Part shown: positions 1 through 64,000 of the stretch, one piece after another
Numbering within the stretch: the stretch's first letter is position 1
How the letters are laid out: every line of letters begins with the position of its first letter
Source of the DNA: a virus
Taxonomy: Duplodnaviria; Caudoviricetes
Virus record (IMG/VR): IMGVR_UViG_3300026549_000048
Coordinates: 1-64,000 of that record
Direction: 5' to 3' (one strand)
DNA length: 64,000 bases
Notes under the pieces: model-generated
What the model was told of the DNA's origin: nothing
Databases searched by the model: none
The model's input: the letters and a program-made list of their open reading frames with translations, nothing else
Position numbers and translations under genes: made by a program

Positions 1-126
1 ACTACACCTACTACACCTACTACACCTACTACACCTACTACACCTACTACACCTACTACACCTACTACACCTACTACACCTACTACACCTACTACACCTA
101 CTACACCTACTACACCTACTACACCT
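1..126. repeat. Perfect 9-bp tandem repeat (ACTACACCT)x14, running off the window start
   Basis: Fourteen exact copies are read directly from 1-126, followed by a degenerate ATTACTACATAT. Confidence 0.98.
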
Positions 127-235: not shown

Positions 236-274
236 TCAAACCGAAATCTTTATATATTGGCTGTTACATAATAA
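236..274 (+). promoter_or_regulatory. Archaeal promoter (BRE CCGAAA + TATA TTTATATA at 249-256)
   Basis: TCAAACCGAAATCTTTATATATTGG; an identical 25-bp copy lies on the minus strand at 1999-2023. Confidence 0.85.
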
Positions 275-1985: not shown

Positions 1986-2023
1986 TATTATGTATGAACC
2001 AATATATAAAGATTTCGGTTTGA
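1985..2023 (-). promoter_or_regulatory. Archaeal promoter driving the ncRNA/tRNA cluster
   Basis: The reverse complement reads TCAAACCGAAATCTTTATATATTGG..TACATAATAA, matching the promoter at 236-274. Confidence 0.85.
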
Positions 2024-7299: not shown

Positions 7300-7322
7300 T
7301 AAAACTATATAAATCTTTCGTA
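7300..7322 (-). promoter_or_regulatory. Archaeal promoter for the packaging operon (leaderless start)
   Basis: CGAAAGA-TTTATATA (7320-7306), about 24 nt upstream of ATG7282, with no SD. Confidence 0.75.
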
Positions 7323-23767: not shown

Positions 23768-25390
23768 ATGACTCATTATCATATAGGTGCAGATAGATGT
23801 AATGGAGCTGAAAGAAGCTCAATGAATAAAATCGCAAAAGAATTAGAAAAATGTGGACATAAAGTAACAGTTGGAAGTGTGACTCCAGAACAGGAAGCCG
23901 CGGCATATCGTGTTAATAAAAAATCAGTATTTTTATTTTTAACTTGTGGTGTAGCTCCTGCTACAATTTGGTCATTTAAGGTGGCTGCGGCGAAAGGAGC
24001 AGTCCCGCCAACAATATTTTTACACGCATCATGGGAGAATGGAGATCCATCTTCTCCAATGCGAAGTGAAAAAAAAATGCTTAATTGTCCATTTAAACCT
24101 GAACATGATTCAGGAGGATTTGCAAATCCAGGTGCAATGAAAAGAGATGCAGGCAGTGCTACAACAGTAGGAGCCTACGCAAAAAAATATTCAAAATATA
24201 TTGGCGTTGCTTGGGCCGCAAATCCGACGGAAATGGGAAAGAAAATTTGTAACGGTGATGTTACTGGCTATGGTTCTGGTGGATCTGGAGGATCAAGTGG
24301 TTCAGGAAGCGGATCATCAAATGGTGGTTCCTCTACTGGATCAAGTGGGTCATCTCCTTTATTAAATGGAGAGGAAACATTTGAAGAGCTTGTTGGAGAT
24401 ATTTGTAAAGGAATTGATTTGGTATTTGCCGTTAAAAGAAGTACTGTAGTTGTATCGGATTATGAATCAATTTATGCTCAGGCAAAATACCTTCGAGATA
24501 ATAATAAAAGCGTTACAGAAAGCGAAGATATAAAATTATGGCAACTTCAAGATGGTTCATATGAACTGGATGTTAATCAATATGGATATTATAATACAGT
24601 TCGTGTTCATTACAAAAATGGTGTTGTTACTGAAAGTTATGAAGATTTGGTTCGAGTATTTGGAGTTGTTGCCATTGATTATCGTGAGCCAAAAATTGAT
24701 AAAAGCACGGCAATAATGAAGGCGAAGGCGTATTTAGCCGCTCACGTTAGGGATTTTGATATGGCTGTAAGGGCAACCATTCTTCACGATGGTGATATAG
24801 AAATTGGAGATATTGTTACATTGGAAAATCCAATGACAATGCGAGACCAAATTAGAATGAAAACAGAAAAAAGAGACCCTGAATACTTCTTTGTAAAAGG
24901 AACTTCTATTTCATGGGAGGGGTCAAGCTTTATTACCTGTGATTTGGATTTGCGATATGGAGCGGAAAGCCCAGAAGGTAAAGAAATTCCAGAAGCTGGA
25001 ACTACATATAGCAATGATAAAAAAGGAAAAAGTAGTGTAGCAGCTGGAGATATAACAGGAGCATTAGAAGAAATTGGAAAAAAATATGCAAGTTATGCGT
25101 ATAGTGGGGCATGTCAAAGCGCTTCTTGTGTAAAAAAACTAAAACAAGGAGATTGTTTTGGTATGAGTGATCTTTTATATTGTTCATTAAAAAGCTTAGG
25201 GGTTGAAGCAAAAATCGTAACATACGCATCCCCATATTCTAATAGCGGAACACATAGAAGTGTTTTATACAAAGATGAGAATGGACAATGGCAAGATTTT
25301 CCATACAAAAAATACGGTTTTCATAAGAATTTTAGTGCTATGGCCGCCTCAAAAACAAGTAAGCATATTATTAAAGGAACATGTGATTAA
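23768..25390 (+). CDS. Baseplate hub, C-terminal part, fused to a PeiW-like transglutaminase-fold cysteine protease
   Basis: YNTVRV, AKAYL and IEIGDIV hub motifs; C-terminal GDCFGMSDLL...GVEAKIV...THRSV...WQDF (Cys-His-Asp). Confidence 0.7.
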   Translation: MTHYHIGADRCNGAERSSMNKIAKELEKCGHKVTVGSVTPEQEAAAYRVNKKSVFLFLTCGVAPATIWSFKVAAAKGAVPPTIFLHASWENGDPSSPMRSEKKMLNCPFKPEHDSGGFANPGAMKRDAGSATTVGAYAKKYSKYIGVAWAANPTEMGKKICNGDVTGYGSGGSGGSSGSGSGSSNGGSSTGSSGSSPLLNGEETFEELVGDICKGIDLVFAVKRSTVVVSDYESIYAQAKYLRDNNKSVTESEDIKLWQLQDGSYELDVNQYGYYNTVRVHYKNGVVTESYEDLVRVFGVVAIDYREPKIDKSTAIMKAKAYLAAHVRDFDMAVRATILHDGDIEIGDIVTLENPMTMRDQIRMKTEKRDPEYFFVKGTSISWEGSSFITCDLDLRYGAESPEGKEIPEAGTTYSNDKKGKSSVAAGDITGALEEIGKKYASYAYSGACQSASCVKKLKQGDCFGMSDLLYCSLKSLGVEAKIVTYASPYSNSGTHRSVLYKDENGQWQDFPYKKYGFHKNFSAMAASKTSKHIIKGTCD

Positions 25391-60850: not shown

Positions 60851-61548
60851 TAAATCCCCTCATAAAATATTTTTGCAGCTTCTTTTATATCAGCAATTGT
60901 TGCATCACCAATACCATTTAGTTTTTTTAAATCTGATCGAGATGCTGTAAATACTTTTTCAGGAGTTTTAAATTCTTTTAATAATAATAAAGCTGTTTTT
61001 TGACCAACTTTATTTGCTAACATAACAAAATCTACATCTTTTCTATTTTTCAATGTAGTTATTTGTTTTGTCTGTAACTGTTCTCCATTATGTTTATTAA
61101 TTGTTTCAGCTAATCGTAATATTTCCTGAAAATATTGAGCTTCATTTTTTACAAAAAAGACGGGGCATTTATATACCATTTCCATTGTACGAACCATTTT
61201 GTCAATAGATTGCTGTTTAATATGTTTTACAGCTGGATATTTTCTTGCAATACGTTGCAAGTCATTAATACTACCATGAACAATTACACAATAATTATTT
61301 GAGACTTTATTCATACGTTGTGCCTGATCTTGTAAATGACCACTAATATATGAAGTAACAAAATCCCCATATGATTTTCGTTCAATATTAAGATATTGTT
61401 TGCTTGTTAATAAACAAGCAACATCTCCAAAATCACCAAGCATTTTTTCTTCAACGTCAATTTTTTTTGTTTTAAAAAACGCTACAGATTTTTTCTTCAT
61501 ATCTAATTCTTTTTTATCAACATAGGCCTTAATCACTTCTGGATGCAT
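60850..61548 (-). CDS. ERCC4/XPF-family structure-specific nuclease with HhH motifs
   Basis: GD...IERKS..DF..S...GHL..Q; VGQKTA and GIGDA helix-hairpin-helix motifs. Confidence 0.9.
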   Translation of the reverse strand: MHPEVIKAYVDKKELDMKKKSVAFFKTKKIDVEEKMLGDFGDVACLLTSKQYLNIERKSYGDFVTSYISGHLQDQAQRMNKVSNNYCVIVHGSINDLQRIARKYPAVKHIKQQSIDKMVRTMEMVYKCPVFFVKNEAQYFQEILRLAETINKHNGEQLQTKQITTLKNRKDVDFVMLANKVGQKTALLLLKEFKTPEKVFTASRSDLKKLNGIGDATIADIKEAAKIFYEGI

Positions 61549-61939
61549 TTTCCTCTCCCTCATTTATAATATCTTGAAAATAATTATCAAAAAAGTGTAC
61601 AAAAAATTTTCTAATATAATCACAATTAAGAAGAAGTGGAGCTATACCAAAATCTTCGCCTGTCCACGGATAATCAATGCAAAATTGACTAATCGGATCA
61701 TCATGTCTTGTACATAAATTTGTTTCTTCATCAAAATCTAAGCATCTTTGTGCTCGACAACAACGACCACATCGACTACAAGCATCAAATTCTATGACCT
61801 CTTCACGTGTAATATATTTTGCATTATGATACATTATATCTTCAATTTTTTCGTTTTTAAATTCTCGTGATAATTCTGGAAATTCATGAGAATAAAATTC
61901 TTTAAACCAATTAATACATTTCTTTGTGCTTGTATCCAT
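61529..61939 (-). CDS. YkgJ-like Cys-cluster (Fe-S/Zn) protein
   Basis: CSRCGRCC...C...C..H...C..YP. Confidence 0.8.
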   Translation of the reverse strand: MDTSTKKCINWFKEFYSHEFPELSREFKNEKIEDIMYHNAKYITREEVIEFDACSRCGRCCRAQRCLDFDEETNLCTRHDDPISQFCIDYPWTGEDFGIAPLLLNCDYIRKFFVHFFDNYFQDIINEGEENASRSD

Positions 61940-64000
61940 TAATGAACCTCCAAAATATTTAAAAACGTTTCATGTTCCATCAGGAAAAATACATATGAAC
62001 CCTCAACCATTAAATGTGGGGGATATTCTTCCGATCCAACCTCAATTTTTCCATCAAGAACTGTTTCTTCATTAATAATGAGATTATATCTCACACATGG
62101 ATTTCCATTTTTACTTGTAAAATATTTTACATCGGTTGCTACCCCACAAGGAACATTATTATTTTTTTGCAAAGATTGCACAATTTTAATAGCTTCCCCA
62201 CTATATAACCAATACTCATGTTGATATTTACTTGGATCATCTAAATTAATCAAAGATAGCAATGACCATTTTGTACCTTTTCCATTTACGTGTAATAATA
62301 ATGGAGTTCCCACTTCAAATGCTTCAACATATCTTGGAATGAATTCTTTTTCAACAAATAAAGAAACAACTTCAAATCCATCTGTTACACTTAAATATGC
62401 GTAATCTTTATTATCTTTATATTCTGTAACTAATCCTTTAATATAACAGTCATAATAATCATCTGTATGCTTAAATAATCCTGAAATAGAAGATAAATCA
62501 ATGTTAATATTCATTTCAGATAAATTATATAAATCTAAAACGTTACCTTTTGGATTAATTTTAATTCTTTGAAATTCTCTAAAGAGTGTTTCTTGTTCAT
62601 TCCAATCATCTGTTTCTTCGATTGTTTTATAAAGTGCACATCTATCTGTATTAAAACAATCAAAAGCTCCACATTCAATTAAAGCCTTTTTTACTGTTTT
62701 GTTTACTTTAGTTCTTTCGCAAAAATCTTCAAAAGATTTATATGGCTGATTAGCAATAATTTTTGGAACAGCCGCTGGACCAATTCCTTTTACCAAACTA
62801 AAGGATAAATAAATATTATTATCATCTTCCATAGTAATATCTTTTGATTGATTGATGTGAGGATTAACAATATCTTTTCCAAGATTACGTAATTCATTAT
62901 ACAATTTTGCTTTCTTTTCTTCTTTATCTGTATTGTTTAAACAAGAAAGTAAAAACTCAACTGGATAATATGTTCTCAACCAAGCAAAAATATATGTTAA
63001 AGCAGTATACCCAACACAATGAGCTTTATTAAAAGAATAAGAAGCAGATGCTTCCATTTTCGCCCACACTTTTTCAGCTATAGCGGAATCAATACCTCGA
63101 CTTGTACAAGATGCAATAAATTTTGGATAATATTCATCAAATATATATTGTAATTTTTTACCAATACCTTTTCTAATTAAATCAGCATCAACCGCACTCA
63201 TACCTGCAAAATCAGTTACAATGTGCATAGCATCTTCCTGATATACAATACAACCATATGTATCTTTTAAAATTGGTTCAAGCAAAGGATGATCATATTC
63301 AATAGGAATTTCCCCATGTTTCCTCTTTATATATAATTCGGTATCTCCAGAATCATTTGGTCCAGGTCTACATAATGCAACAACAGCAGCCAATTCATCA
63401 AAATTCTGTGGTTGCATTTTCTGACAAACTTCTGTTGCGGCTGGAGATTCAATTTGGAACATTCCCAATGTTGTTTGACAAATTGTTTGAAAAACCTTAG
63501 GATCATTATATTGTAATGGTAATGATACGCCTGGAAGTAAATCTAAACAATCTGCAATAATATCCAAACTGTTTAATCCTAATGTATCATTCTTAAGAAA
63601 ACCTAATGAATCCGCAGTCTTTCCATTATTATCCAAACAATCAACACCATTGACTCTAATAATTGAATCACGATATTCTACGTCCTGATCTAAAATTACC
63701 ATTGCTCCTGCATGAACACCATAATTCTTTAGCATTCCTGTTAATTTTGGATAATTTTCTTTAATGAAAGGGTGAGCGTCTAAATAATTTACAACATCTG
63801 GAATACTTTCAATATCATCGGTATCCCCAATCATTTTTGAGATTTTCTTTCTCAAGTCAAATGGAACTCCAGATACACGACCTAAATCATCAATTGCAAC
63901 TTTTTTCGTCCATCTCACTTGATTAATTACTTGATAAGTTCTATCATGACCAAAATCATCCTTAATGATTTTTAACACTTCTTTTCTTCTTTTTTTGCTA
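61939..64000 (-). CDS. dnaE: Family C DNA polymerase (Pol III alpha, DnaE-like), 5'-truncated by the window
   Basis: RRKEVL, GVHAGA, LKNDTLGL (catalytic Asp), GMFQIES, ALCRPGP, TYGCIVYQE, YSFNKAH, YYPVEF, KGIG; frame open to the window end. Confidence 0.95.
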   Translation of the reverse strand, partial: SKKRRKEVLKIIKDDFGHDRTYQVINQVRWTKKVAIDDLGRVSGVPFDLRKKISKMIGDTDDIESIPDVVNYLDAHPFIKENYPKLTGMLKNYGVHAGAMVILDQDVEYRDSIIRVNGVDCLDNNGKTADSLGFLKNDTLGLNSLDIIADCLDLLPGVSLPLQYNDPKVFQTICQTTLGMFQIESPAATEVCQKMQPQNFDELAAVVALCRPGPNDSGDTELYIKRKHGEIPIEYDHPLLEPILKDTYGCIVYQEDAMHIVTDFAGMSAVDADLIRKGIGKKLQYIFDEYYPKFIASCTSRGIDSAIAEKVWAKMEASASYSFNKAHCVGYTALTYIFAWLRTYYPVEFLLSCLNNTDKEEKKAKLYNELRNLGKDIVNPHINQSKDITMEDDNNIYLSFSLVKGIGPAAVPKIIANQPYKSFEDFCERTKVNKTVKKALIECGAFDCFNTDRCALYKTIEETDDWNEQETLFREFQRIKINPKGNVLDLYNLSEMNINIDLSSISGLFKHTDDYYDCYIKGLVTEYKDNKDYAYLSVTDGFEVVSLFVEKEFIPRYVEAFEVGTPLLLHVNGKGTKWSLLSLINLDDPSKYQHEYWLYSGEAIKIVQSLQKNNNVPCGVATDVKYFTSKNGNPCVRYNLIINEETVLDGKIEVGSEEYPPHLMVEGSYVFFLMEHETFLNILEVH

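What the first reader, a model, noticed from the sequence alone, without database searches (positions are those of the whole stretch)
61939..64000. Bacterial-type family C DNA polymerase in a virus with archaeal signals
Seen: clear DnaE motifs, contiguous and translationally coupled with archaeal-style genes (YkgJ-like, ERCC4). Established: archaea replicate with PolB/PolD and family C is characteristic of bacteria and some phages. Inference: a cross-domain acquisition that must work with PCNA or a viral clamp. The C-terminal ~200 aa look divergent (OB-like), possibly adapted for this.
Basis: partly seen in the sequence, partly recalled or inferred. Interest (0 to 1): 0.75.

Follow-up and report, generated by a model that had tools for sequence, protein, structure and literature searches.

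The report
Split DnaE polymerase in methanogen virus
The stretch encodes most of a bacterial-type (family C, DnaE) DNA polymerase that a complete 121-kb cattle-gut virus, most likely infecting Methanobrevibacter archaea, makes from two separate genes as its only recognisable polymerase; the cultured methanogen virus phiF1 already shows the same layout.

Summary
Window 61939-64000 (minus strand) holds the C-terminal 686 residues of an 829-aa DnaE core: palm, fingers, HhH, OB fold and C-terminal domain, with the catalytic Asp residues intact. The gene continues past the window end. Its PHP domain is a separate 313-aa gene directly upstream, with all nine metal ligands present.

This split is conserved in more than 120 metagenomic protein clusters and in Methanobacterium virus phiF1. 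An independent cattle-gut library reproduces the junction letter for letter.

The record is a complete 121-kb virus with terminal repeats. Its head, tail and replication genes are colinear with phiF1. It carries BRE/TATA-type promoters. A close copy of the gene pair sits in genuine Methanobrevibacter chromosomal contigs. An archaeal host is therefore likely (about 0.9), although no CRISPR spacer match was found.

Trees place the clade with phiF1 and phage DnaEs, not inside cellular bacterial DnaE. The segment carrying the internal beta-clamp motif is deleted, and no PCNA, beta clamp, PolA or PolB was detected. How the enzyme achieves processivity is open.

The C-terminus has the canonical DnaE fold. 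Novelty is modest: phiF1 has been annotated this way since 2019, and this scan already reported the same two-gene DnaE on two other viruses.

The parts
61939..64000 (-). DnaE-type (family C) polymerase core, residues 144-829 of an 829-aa protein plus its stop. The gene continues to genome 64428, outside the window.
   Evidence: AlphaFold2 model pLDDT 88, pTM 0.80. Foldseek best hit M. tuberculosis DnaE1 7pu7_A, E 1e-39, TMq 0.73.
63577..63999 (-). C-terminal part of the palm domain, including catalytic D281 (the KNDTLGL motif, which aligns with E. coli D555).
   Evidence: PF07733. Alignment to E. coli alpha. Invariant in 50 relatives.
63100..63516 (-). Fingers domain (residues 305-443).
   Evidence: PF17657, 4e-42.
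62635..62874 (-). (HhH)2 duplex-DNA-binding domain (residues 519-598).
   Evidence: PF14579, 9e-19.
62602..62622 (-). Short linker (residues ~603-609) standing where bacterial DnaE carries a 45-55-aa segment with the internal clamp-binding motif GQxSLF[DG]. That segment is absent here.
   Evidence: MAFFT alignment with 9 bacterial and phage DnaEs.
62245..62454 (-). OB fold (residues 659-728).
   Evidence: Five strands and a helix in the model. It aligns with the bacterial DnaE OB region.
61942..62223 (-). C-terminal helical plus beta domain (residues 736-829). It corresponds in position to the tau-binding domain of bacterial alpha. The YFTSK..GN.C motif is shared with phiF1.
   Evidence: Invariant F770, S772, N776 and C778.
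61529..61939 (-). 136-aa Cys-rich (CxxCxxCC) protein, translationally coupled to the core (TAATG overlap). Conserved at 51% identity in the relative L010.
   Evidence: No Pfam, PHROG or PDB sequence hit.
60850..61563 (-). ERCC4 nuclease + (HhH)2, the short XPF/Hef-like architecture.
   Evidence: PF02732 3.8e-13 and PF14520 1.5e-8. Homologous to phiF1 ORF54.
59675..60259 (-). 194-aa IS110/transposase-20-like C-terminal-domain protein. phiF1 has a counterpart in the same position.
   Evidence: phrog_4285, 5.5e-10. phiF1 ORF53 annotation.
59077..59583 (-). dCTP deaminase / dUTPase-like protein.
   Evidence: PF22769, 2.7e-14.
56745..58727 (-). Anaerobic ribonucleotide reductase NrdD.
   Evidence: PF13597, 1e-124. 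39% identical to phiF1 ORF51.
55997..56743 (-). Radical-SAM activase (NrdG-like).
   Evidence: PF04055, 1e-13.
58778..58791 (-). BRE/TATA-like promoter motif 50 nt upstream of nrdD. Further copies of the [AC][AG]AA-N2-3-TTTATATA motif lie at 242-256 (+), 2003-2017 (-) and 7306-7320 (-).

Best explanation
The ORF is the polymerase subunit of a two-gene family C (DnaE) polymerase. A 313-aa PHP protein (genome 64422-65363) has all nine metal ligands of the active PHP 3'-5' exonucleases and is inferred to be the proofreader. It is translated just ahead of an 829-aa core carrying palm, fingers, HhH, OB fold and C-terminal domain, and the two are inferred to assemble non-covalently into the same architecture as a fused bacterial Pol III alpha. 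The pair is the only recognisable DNA polymerase of a complete 121-kb virus whose head, tail and replication genes match the sheathed-tail virus phiF1. The host is most likely a rumen Methanobrevibacter. I infer that the pair is the viral replicase and works with virus-encoded partners: a 965-aa Prim-Pol-like protein, an XPD-like helicase, an Mre11-like nuclease, ERCC4, NrdDG, a thymidylate-synthase-like protein and a dCTP deaminase. Because the segment holding the internal beta-clamp motif is deleted and no clamp gene is detectable, it probably does not use a beta clamp. Whether it is clamp-free, uses an unrecognised viral factor or uses host PCNA is not shown. Shown: identity, domains, catalytic residues, the conserved split, kinship to phiF1, absence of the clamp motif. 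Inferred: subunit assembly, replicase role, host, clamp independence.
For: Identity and fold.

Split is real and conserved:
- More than 120 clusters of 800-830-aa PHP-less cores at 45-76% identity.
- Relatives L008, L009 and L010 end the PHP gene after the same conserved Trp, and the core gene starts anew.
- L007 has a 239-aa ORF between the two genes.
- phiF1 carries PHP in ORF58 and the core in ORF57.
- An 872-nt contig from an independent cattle-gut RNA library spans the junction with 0 differences.

PHP ligands H14, H16, D23, H48, E74, H92, C143, D211 and H213 are invariant.

Assembly of the two subunits: complex prediction, PHP against core residues 1-620, scored 0.84 with a best control of 0.00. 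That mark was reached by 58 of 80 solved complexes and 2 of 110 mismatched pairs. The runs agree in at least 93% of contacts and the partner pLDDT is at least 90. My own alignments were used, and fused DnaE structures are solved, so the pass may only reflect likeness.

Only polymerase: no PolB or PolA hit in six frames, and one DnaE palm hit.

Archaeal virus:
- 22 genes are shared colinearly with phiF1.
- TerL best hit is phiF1 (2e-70); the next is a Halorubrum virus (3e-8).
- The sheath protein hits only phiF1 among 50,697 phage records.
- BRE/TATA motifs are concentrated in the 8.5% of the genome that is non-coding, and four lie 21-24 nt before start codons.
- A PHP|core pair about 50% identical lies in two Methanobrevibacter genomes beside an iorA gene that is 80-96% identical (full-length matches) in most of the 100 of 103 genomes of the genus that match it.

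No clamp.

Not chimeric: terminal repeats and CheckV 100%, synteny with phiF1 and L010, and independent contigs.
Against: No direct host link was found. About 600 spacers from 15 Methanobrevibacter CRISPR arrays do not match the virus. TerL is absent from 103 Methanobrevibacter genomes. No pseudomurein endoisopeptidase family was detected.

Some relatives are binned as Bacilli, Alistipes or Clostridia.

phiF1 as sister has SH-aLRT 93, below the 95 star, and sits on a long branch.

The replicase role is inferred from gene content only. The stand-alone chromosomal copies show that the pair can persist without the viral replisome genes.

Absence of a clamp is by profile search only; divergent viral clamps escape such searches.

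AT-rich intergenic DNA inflates TATA-like motifs. The window-wide count of the N2-spaced form of the motif is not above shuffles: 2 found against 0.8 expected.
Confidence: 0.7

Rival explanations
1. The virus infects a low-GC rumen bacterium (for example a Clostridia member). The DnaE is then an ordinary phage DnaE working with the host's beta clamp, and the archaeal look is coincidence.
For: Family C is bacterial: the palm family rings in 10 bacterial and 0 archaeal control genomes. Some relatives are binned in Bacilli, Alistipes or Clostridia MAGs. There is no spacer match, no provirus and no Pei lysin.
Against: Head, tail and replication genes are colinear with the cultured archaeal virus phiF1, and nothing bacterial comes close. 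BRE/TATA motifs have archaeal geometry. The internal beta-clamp motif is deleted. The 'Alistipes' contig is simply a syntenic viral contig, and that bin has its own separate bacterial dnaE. The gene pair sits in Methanobrevibacter chromosomal contigs.
Confidence: 0.08
2. The pair is not the replicase. It is an accessory repair or translesion polymerase, or a selfish mobile gene pair, while genome replication uses host PolD or PolB recruited by the viral primase and helicase.
For: No clamp, clamp loader or tau is detectable. The pair survives alone between metabolic genes in two Methanobrevibacter chromosomes. Inteins and an inserted ORF in relatives show that the locus attracts mobile elements.
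Against: It is the only polymerase in a 121-kb virus that carries its own nucleotide-supply and primase/helicase genes. It lies in the replication operon and is conserved in more than 120 clusters. Its PHP keeps the full ligand set, as in the replicative DnaE1 of M. tuberculosis, which is the best fold match.
Confidence: 0.15
3. The split is a frameshift, from a sequencing or assembly error or a decaying gene, or the contig is a chimera that joins a phage dnaE to an archaeal virus.
For: The two ORFs overlap by 7 nt in different frames. Logan contigs of the probable source run break inside the core gene.
Against: The same gene boundary is found in phiF1, L007-L010 and more than 120 clusters. 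The junction is identical in an independent sample. Terminal repeats, CheckV 100% and synteny across the join argue against a chimera.
Confidence: 0.02

Closest known systems
Methanobacterium virus phiF1 (MK994522) ORF58 + ORF57, annotated 'DNA polymerase III DnaE superfamily protein'
   Same: Two-gene layout, with PHP in one ORF and the core in the next. The C-terminal OB fold plus YFTSK..GN.C domain is shared. The internal clamp-motif segment is missing in both. The neighbourhood is the same (nuclease, ERCC4, transposase-like gene, NrdD), and so are the head and tail genes. phiF1 is the sister branch in both trees.
   Different: Only about 31% identity. phiF1's PHP subunit carries an N-terminal family-4 UDG domain, and its core carries a Hint/intein insert; this virus has neither. 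phiF1 is 74 kb and its host is a thermophile, against 121 kb, about 30% GC and cattle gut here.
Bacterial Pol III alpha / DnaE1 (E. coli 2HNH and 5FKU, T. aquaticus 2HPI and 3E0D, M. tuberculosis 7PU7)
   Same: All domains are present in the same order. The catalytic Asp triad and the nine PHP ligands (as in the T. aquaticus and M. tuberculosis enzymes) are conserved. phmmer E 1e-84, Foldseek E 1e-39 to 1e-37, TMq up to 0.73.
   Different: PHP is a separate polypeptide. The 45-55-aa segment with the internal beta-binding motif is deleted. No beta, tau or epsilon genes are nearby or detectable. The host cell presumably has PCNA and RFC, not beta and DnaX (established knowledge of archaeal replication).
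Phage DnaE polymerases (for example Rhodococcus phage Dorin gp77; Cellulophaga phage phi13:1 gp038 + gp039)
   Same: A virus-encoded DnaE within a replication module. Dorin groups next to the phiF1 + methanogen-virus clade and also lacks the internal clamp motif. phi13:1 also has two adjacent DnaE genes.
   Different: Dorin's enzyme is fused (1273-aa open frame). I did not map where the phi13:1 split lies. All of these hosts are bacteria.
PolC of Firmicutes (3F2B, 9QPC)
   Same: Same family C palm, fingers and PHP fold.
   Different: Much weaker match: Foldseek E about 1e-16, 17-18% identity. PolC's domain order and inserted exonuclease are not seen here.

Membership tests
Family C DNA polymerase, DnaE type (Pol III alpha) | Pol-beta-like palm with three catalytic aspartates | tested here: met
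   PF07733, 4e-53. D138, D140 and D281 align with E. coli D401, D403 and D555. They are invariant in 50 relatives.
Family C DNA polymerase, DnaE type (Pol III alpha) | Fingers and (HhH)2 domains following the palm | tested here: met
   PF17657 at 6e-42 and PF14579 at 1e-18.
Family C DNA polymerase, DnaE type (Pol III alpha) | Overall fold like solved Pol III alpha, including the C-terminal OB fold and terminal domain | tested here: met
   Model pLDDT 88. 7pu7_A E 1e-39, TMq 0.73. 3e0d_A aligns over 801 columns, TMq 0.72.
Family C DNA polymerase, DnaE type (Pol III alpha) | N-terminal PHP domain in the same polypeptide as the palm | tested here: not met
   PHP is a separate 313-aa ORF that overlaps the core start. 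The split is conserved. The domain is present in trans, with a predicted interface.
Family C DNA polymerase, DnaE type (Pol III alpha) | Internal beta-clamp-binding motif (Qxx[LM]F type) between HhH and OB | tested here: not met
   The segment with GQxSLF[DG] is present in 8 bacterial or phage DnaEs. It is absent in the query, 3 family members, phiF1 and phage Dorin.
Family C DNA polymerase, DnaE type (Pol III alpha) | Works with beta clamp, DnaX/tau and epsilon | not testable with these tools
   No PCNA_N or DNA_pol3_beta_3 hit in six frames of the genome. Tau and epsilon were not searched. Physical interactions need experiments.
phiF1-like two-gene DnaE of Methanobacteriales viruses | Gene boundary at the PHP-palm linker | tested here: met
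phiF1-like two-gene DnaE of Methanobacteriales viruses | Monophyly with phiF1 to the exclusion of cellular DnaE | tested here: inconclusive
   phiF1 is sister under both LG+G4 and LG+C20 PMSF, with SH-aLRT 93 each time (not starred) and on a long branch. The AU test was not run.
phiF1-like two-gene DnaE of Methanobacteriales viruses | Carried by a virus with phiF1-type head, tail and replication gene order | tested here: met
   22 colinear shared genes. TerL and sheath best or only hit is phiF1.
phiF1-like two-gene DnaE of Methanobacteriales viruses | Host is a pseudomurein-walled methanogen | tested here: inconclusive
   Indirect support comes from promoters and from chromosomal copies in Methanobrevibacter. 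There is no spacer match, no Pei lysin and no provirus.
PolC | Closest fold and sequence match to PolC, with a DnaQ-type exonuclease inside PHP | tested here: not met
   PolC structures score far lower: E 1e-16, 17-18% identity. The PHP ORF is continuous with the DnaE-type PHP.
DnaE2/ImuC error-prone polymerase | imuA-imuB-dnaE2 cassette | not tested
   No search for ImuA or ImuB was run. The neighbours are replication and nucleotide genes.

The most novel reading that the evidence does not exclude
A large, abundant lineage of virulent Methanobrevibacter viruses replicates inside an archaeal cell with a two-subunit bacterial-type polymerase that has shed its beta-clamp motif. It gains processivity in a new way, through host PCNA, an unrecognised viral factor or its own C-terminal domains. 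The gene pair has also been taken into Methanobrevibacter chromosomes, which would give an archaeon a family C polymerase.
Probability: 0.25. Interest if true: 0.8.

Novelty: new member of a known kind. Interest (0 to 1): 0.55.

Why it matters
Textbook replication biology assigns family C polymerases to bacteria and PolB/PolD to archaea. Here a bacterial-type enzyme is the only recognisable polymerase of a whole lineage of viruses of the main gut and rumen methanogens. This gives a natural test of which replisome contacts (clamp, clamp loader, helicase) a polymerase needs in order to work in a foreign domain of life.

The separately encoded PHP subunit and the loss of the clamp motif are concrete handles for biochemistry. 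The chromosomal copies in Methanobrevibacter raise the question of whether an archaeon uses a family C polymerase.

Practically, the enzyme is a marker for an abundant group of methanogen viruses in cattle. These contigs are at present sometimes binned into bacterial genomes.

Tried and rejected
- **Single-protein scans.** Scans of genome contigs and viral contigs with the core found no relative. Only the alignment-based scan worked.
- **Pseudomurein endoisopeptidase.** Peptidase_C71 gave no hit, but it rang in no control genome, so that search is uninformative. PMBR also gave no hit.
- **CRISPR, first try.** A 20-kb piece of the virus against 103 Methanobrevibacter genomes gave only 26-37-nt matches. 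The three I checked are not in arrays, and only 2 candidates per genome were scored.
- **CRISPR, second try.** I fetched 40 regions around cas1, found 15 arrays (about 600 spacers), and the best match to the virus was 18-21 nt, which is chance level. Inconclusive, not negative.
- **Provirus search.** TerL was found in 0 of 103 Methanobrevibacter genomes. No provirus was found with this query.
- **tRNA T-loops.** The four viral tRNAs show both TTCGA and TTCAA forms, which is not diagnostic of domain.
- **NrdD homologues as a host clue.** The top 120 hits are all viral relatives.
- **Clamp search.** PCNA_N and DNA_pol3_beta_3 gave no hit. Ten unknown ORFs scanned against PHROGs gave nothing clamp-like, and PDB sequence searches of three ORFs, two of which flank the polymerase genes, found nothing either. 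The ESM Atlas gave no usable hit for the conserved 206-aa neighbour.
- **PIP box.** The only Qxx-h-xx-YY string lies in a conserved fingers helix, so I rejected it as a PIP box (by inspection).
- **Promoter count.** The window-wide count of MRAA-NN-TTTATATA is not above shuffles. The promoter argument rests on position and recurrence, not on the count.
- **Literature.** Seven full-text searches and three papers read found no held paper that discusses DnaE in archaeal viruses. The most relevant paper, Medvedeva et al. 2023 (Nat Microbiol 8:2170), is not held, so prior description there cannot be excluded.
Full report
**What is at the coordinates.**
The minus-strand frame 61939-63999 is open to the window's end (686 aa). 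It matches the Pfam fingers domain (4e-42), HHH_6 (9e-19) and the last 150 positions of the Pol III alpha palm (5e-14), and PHROG 405 'DNA polymerase' at 6e-135.

The window is the first 64 kb of a single 121,120-bp virus record. It has 120-bp terminal repeats and a CheckV estimate of 100%. In the whole record the ORF is 61939-64428, 829 aa, with a complete palm domain (4e-53). phmmer aligns residues 51-604 with E. coli alpha residues 317-903 (E 1e-84). D138 and D140 fall on D401 and D403, and D281 falls on D555.

An AlphaFold2 model built from 50 relatives has pLDDT 88 and pTM 0.80. It matches M. tuberculosis DnaE1 (E 1e-39, TMq 0.73) and T. aquaticus Pol III alpha (801 aligned columns, TMq 0.72). 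PolC lies far behind (E about 1e-16). The last 230 residues are an OB fold (659-728) and a helical plus beta domain (736-829). This is the canonical DnaE C-terminus, divergent in sequence but not in fold.

**The polymerase is made from two genes.**
The 829-aa protein has no PHP domain. A 313-aa ORF immediately upstream (64422-65363) is a PHP domain (5e-31). Its stop overlaps the core's start in another frame (ATGGTAATG). It aligns with residues 4-240 of T. aquaticus alpha. Residues H14, H16, D23, H48, E74, H92, C143, D211 and H213 are invariant in four relatives. From established work on the T. aquaticus and M. tuberculosis enzymes, this full ligand set marks PHP domains that are active 3'-5' exonucleases.

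The split is not an error, for five reasons:
- More than 120 protein clusters of 800-830 aa lack PHP, at 45-76% identity, on contigs up to 165 kb.
- Three relatives end the PHP gene after the same conserved Trp and restart.
- One relative has a 239-aa ORF between the two genes.
- phiF1 carries PHP in ORF58 (fused to a family-4 UDG) and the core in ORF57 (with a Hint insert).
- An 872-nt contig from an independent cattle-gut RNA library covers the junction with no difference.

A complex prediction of PHP against core residues 1-620 scored 0.84, with a best control of 0.00. That mark was reached by 58 of 80 solved complexes and 2 of 110 mismatched pairs. The runs agree in at least 93% of contacts and the partner pLDDT is at least 90. 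My own alignments were used. Because fused DnaE structures are solved, the pass may show only likeness.

**What the virus is.**
A tblastn of all ORFs against Methanobacterium virus phiF1 (host Methanothermobacter) finds 22 shared genes in the same order. These are portal, TerL (35%), capsid, sheath, tube, tape measure, hub and baseplate J, then NrdD, ERCC4, the DnaE core, PHP, a thymidylate-synthase-like gene and a C5 methylase. Among 50,697 phage records, TerL's best hit is phiF1 (2e-70) and the next is a Halorubrum virus (3e-8). The sheath protein hits phiF1 alone.

A recurrent motif, [AC][AG]AA-N2-3-TTTATATA, often extends to CGAAATCTTTATATATTGG. It has 17 hits, and 13 of them fall in the 8.5% of the genome that is non-coding. 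Ten lie within 120 nt upstream of a same-strand start. Four lie 21-24 nt from the start codon. This is the BRE plus TATA-box arrangement and the spacing expected for archaeal promoters, some of them with leaderless mRNAs (established knowledge). AT-rich spacers inflate such motifs, and the raw count is not significant.

The source is a cattle-gut metagenome, and GC is about 30%.

**A link to Methanobrevibacter.**
Two species-level Methanobrevibacter genomes hold a PHP|core pair 48-50% identical to this one, with intact frames. These contigs share nothing else with the virus. The pair is flanked by cellular genes: indolepyruvate-type oxidoreductase subunits, an AMP-forming ligase, a solute symporter, an ABC transporter and a beta-helix surface protein. 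The adjacent iorA matches in 100 of 103 genomes of the genus and is 80-96% identical in most full-length matches. It lies at the same distance from the pair in both genomes. In the trees these copies nest inside the viral clade.

It is the best physical tie between this DnaE clade and the genus.

A contig binned as Alistipes is simply a syntenic viral relative, and that bin also has its own bacterial dnaE.

Direct host proof failed. About 600 spacers from 15 arrays gave no match, no provirus was found and no Pei lysin was detected. I put an archaeal host at about 0.9.

**Origin.**
Two trees were built: 87 rows under LG+G4, and 36 rows under LG+C20 PMSF. In both:
- the metagenomic family is a clade (99*);
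- phiF1 is its sister (93);
- Rhodococcus phage Dorin joins them next (91), with other phage DnaEs (Eggerthella, and Rhizobium in the smaller tree) weakly attached outside (63 and 81).

Cellular DnaEs sit on the other side of the tree: a 67-row clade at 96* in the larger tree, and a side supported only at 81 in the smaller one. That side also holds a few phage rows. The phage branches are long and the tree is unrooted. The data therefore suggest descent from a phage DnaE pool rather than a recent capture from a gut bacterium, but they do not prove it.

**How it may work.**
No PolA or PolB is present, and there is one DnaE. The module also encodes:
- a 965-aa protein with a weak Prim-Pol match, an XPD-like helicase, an Mre11-like phosphoesterase and DprA;
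- two C5 methylases, a thymidylate-synthase-like protein and a guanylate-kinase-like protein;
- a dCTP deaminase, NrdD/NrdG and a rubrerythrin.

Bacterial DnaEs carry GQxSLF[DG] in a 45-55-residue segment between HhH and the OB fold. That segment is missing in this family, in phiF1 and in phage Dorin. No PCNA or beta-clamp profile matches any frame.

I therefore read the pair as the viral replicase, beta-independent, with PHP as its proofreader. What supplies processivity is unknown.

**Novelty.**
phiF1's GenBank record has called ORF57 and ORF58 'DnaE superfamily' since 2019. RefSeq names the Methanobrevibacter copies 'DNA polymerase III subunit alpha'. This scan reported the same two-gene enzyme on two other viruses. 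No held paper discusses it, and the key compendium of methanogen viruses is not held.

The window's gene is thus a new member of a recorded but little-studied kind. The conserved split, the deleted clamp segment and the chromosomal copies are the points worth following up.

Noticed in passing
window 1-126, and genome 121001-121120: Both genome ends consist of about 13 tandem copies of the 9-bp unit ACTACACCT. The 120-bp 'terminal repeat' is this array, so the assembly may have closed or broken inside a longer tandem repeat.
   Followed up: partly
window 242-256 (+), 2003-2017 (-), 7306-7320 (-), 58778-58791 (-); genome 70392, 72381, 85702, 97908, 109852 (-): Recurrent BRE/TATA-like motif (CGAAATCTTTATATATTGG and variants). 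Four copies lie 21-24 nt before a start codon with no Shine-Dalgarno, suggesting leaderless mRNAs. One copy heads the tRNA cluster.
   Followed up: partly
L004 13949-15359 (genome 68949-70359): Contigs from the cattle-gut RNA libraries over the 187-aa and 126-aa ORFs just downstream of the promoter motif at 70392 have depth 150-220, against about 5-30 elsewhere. Contig depth cannot rank genes, so this is only a hint of a highly expressed early gene.
   Followed up: no
window 23768-25390 (+): A 540-aa baseplate or hub protein whose C-terminal 280 aa are 40% identical to phiF1 ORF35. It gives a weak transglutaminase-core hit (E 0.0018). It may be a virion-borne cell-wall protease, and no PeiW/PeiP family hit exists anywhere in the genome.
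   Followed up: partly
L005 9252-14046 (phiF1 ORF58/ORF57): phiF1's PHP subunit is fused to a family-4 uracil-DNA glycosylase. Its core has a Hint/intein-like insert at residues ~93-440 that splits the palm domain.
   Followed up: partly
proteins P0043, P0049 (DnaE core relatives); P0154, P0174, P0193 and others (NrdD relatives): Many relatives carry inteins (Intein_splicing, LAGLIDADG_3) in the DnaE core or in NrdD. This virus has none.
   Followed up: no
L007 284-1003: In one relative (a contig binned as 'Bacilli bacterium') a 239-aa ORF sits between the PHP and core genes. It may be a homing endonuclease or another mobile insert.
   Followed up: no
G020:C133 72222-74045, G020:C46, G021:C5, G023:C52 (loci L147-L151): Three further Methanobrevibacter genome bins hold fused DnaE-like frames of 1048-1322 aa, 27-35% identical to the core. 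They could be bacterial contamination or other mobile elements.
   Followed up: no
genome 66087-66707 (-), L001 4088-4708: A 206-aa protein conserved beside the PHP gene (49% identical in L010) ends in a strongly acidic tail (DIDKDIDDYDYSD), like the polymerase-contacting tails of phage single-strand-binding proteins. No family, PDB or Atlas hit.
   Followed up: partly
genome 91080-93977 (-), L002 9080-11977: A 965-aa protein with only a weak N-terminal Prim-Pol match (E 0.002). It has no recognisable helicase domain and no PDB sequence relative. It is a candidate primase-helicase of a new type.
   Followed up: partly
window 55430-55981 (-): A rubrerythrin gene (with a rubredoxin-like C-terminus) closes the nucleotide-metabolism operon. 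It may be an oxidative-stress auxiliary gene protecting the oxygen-sensitive NrdD.
   Followed up: no
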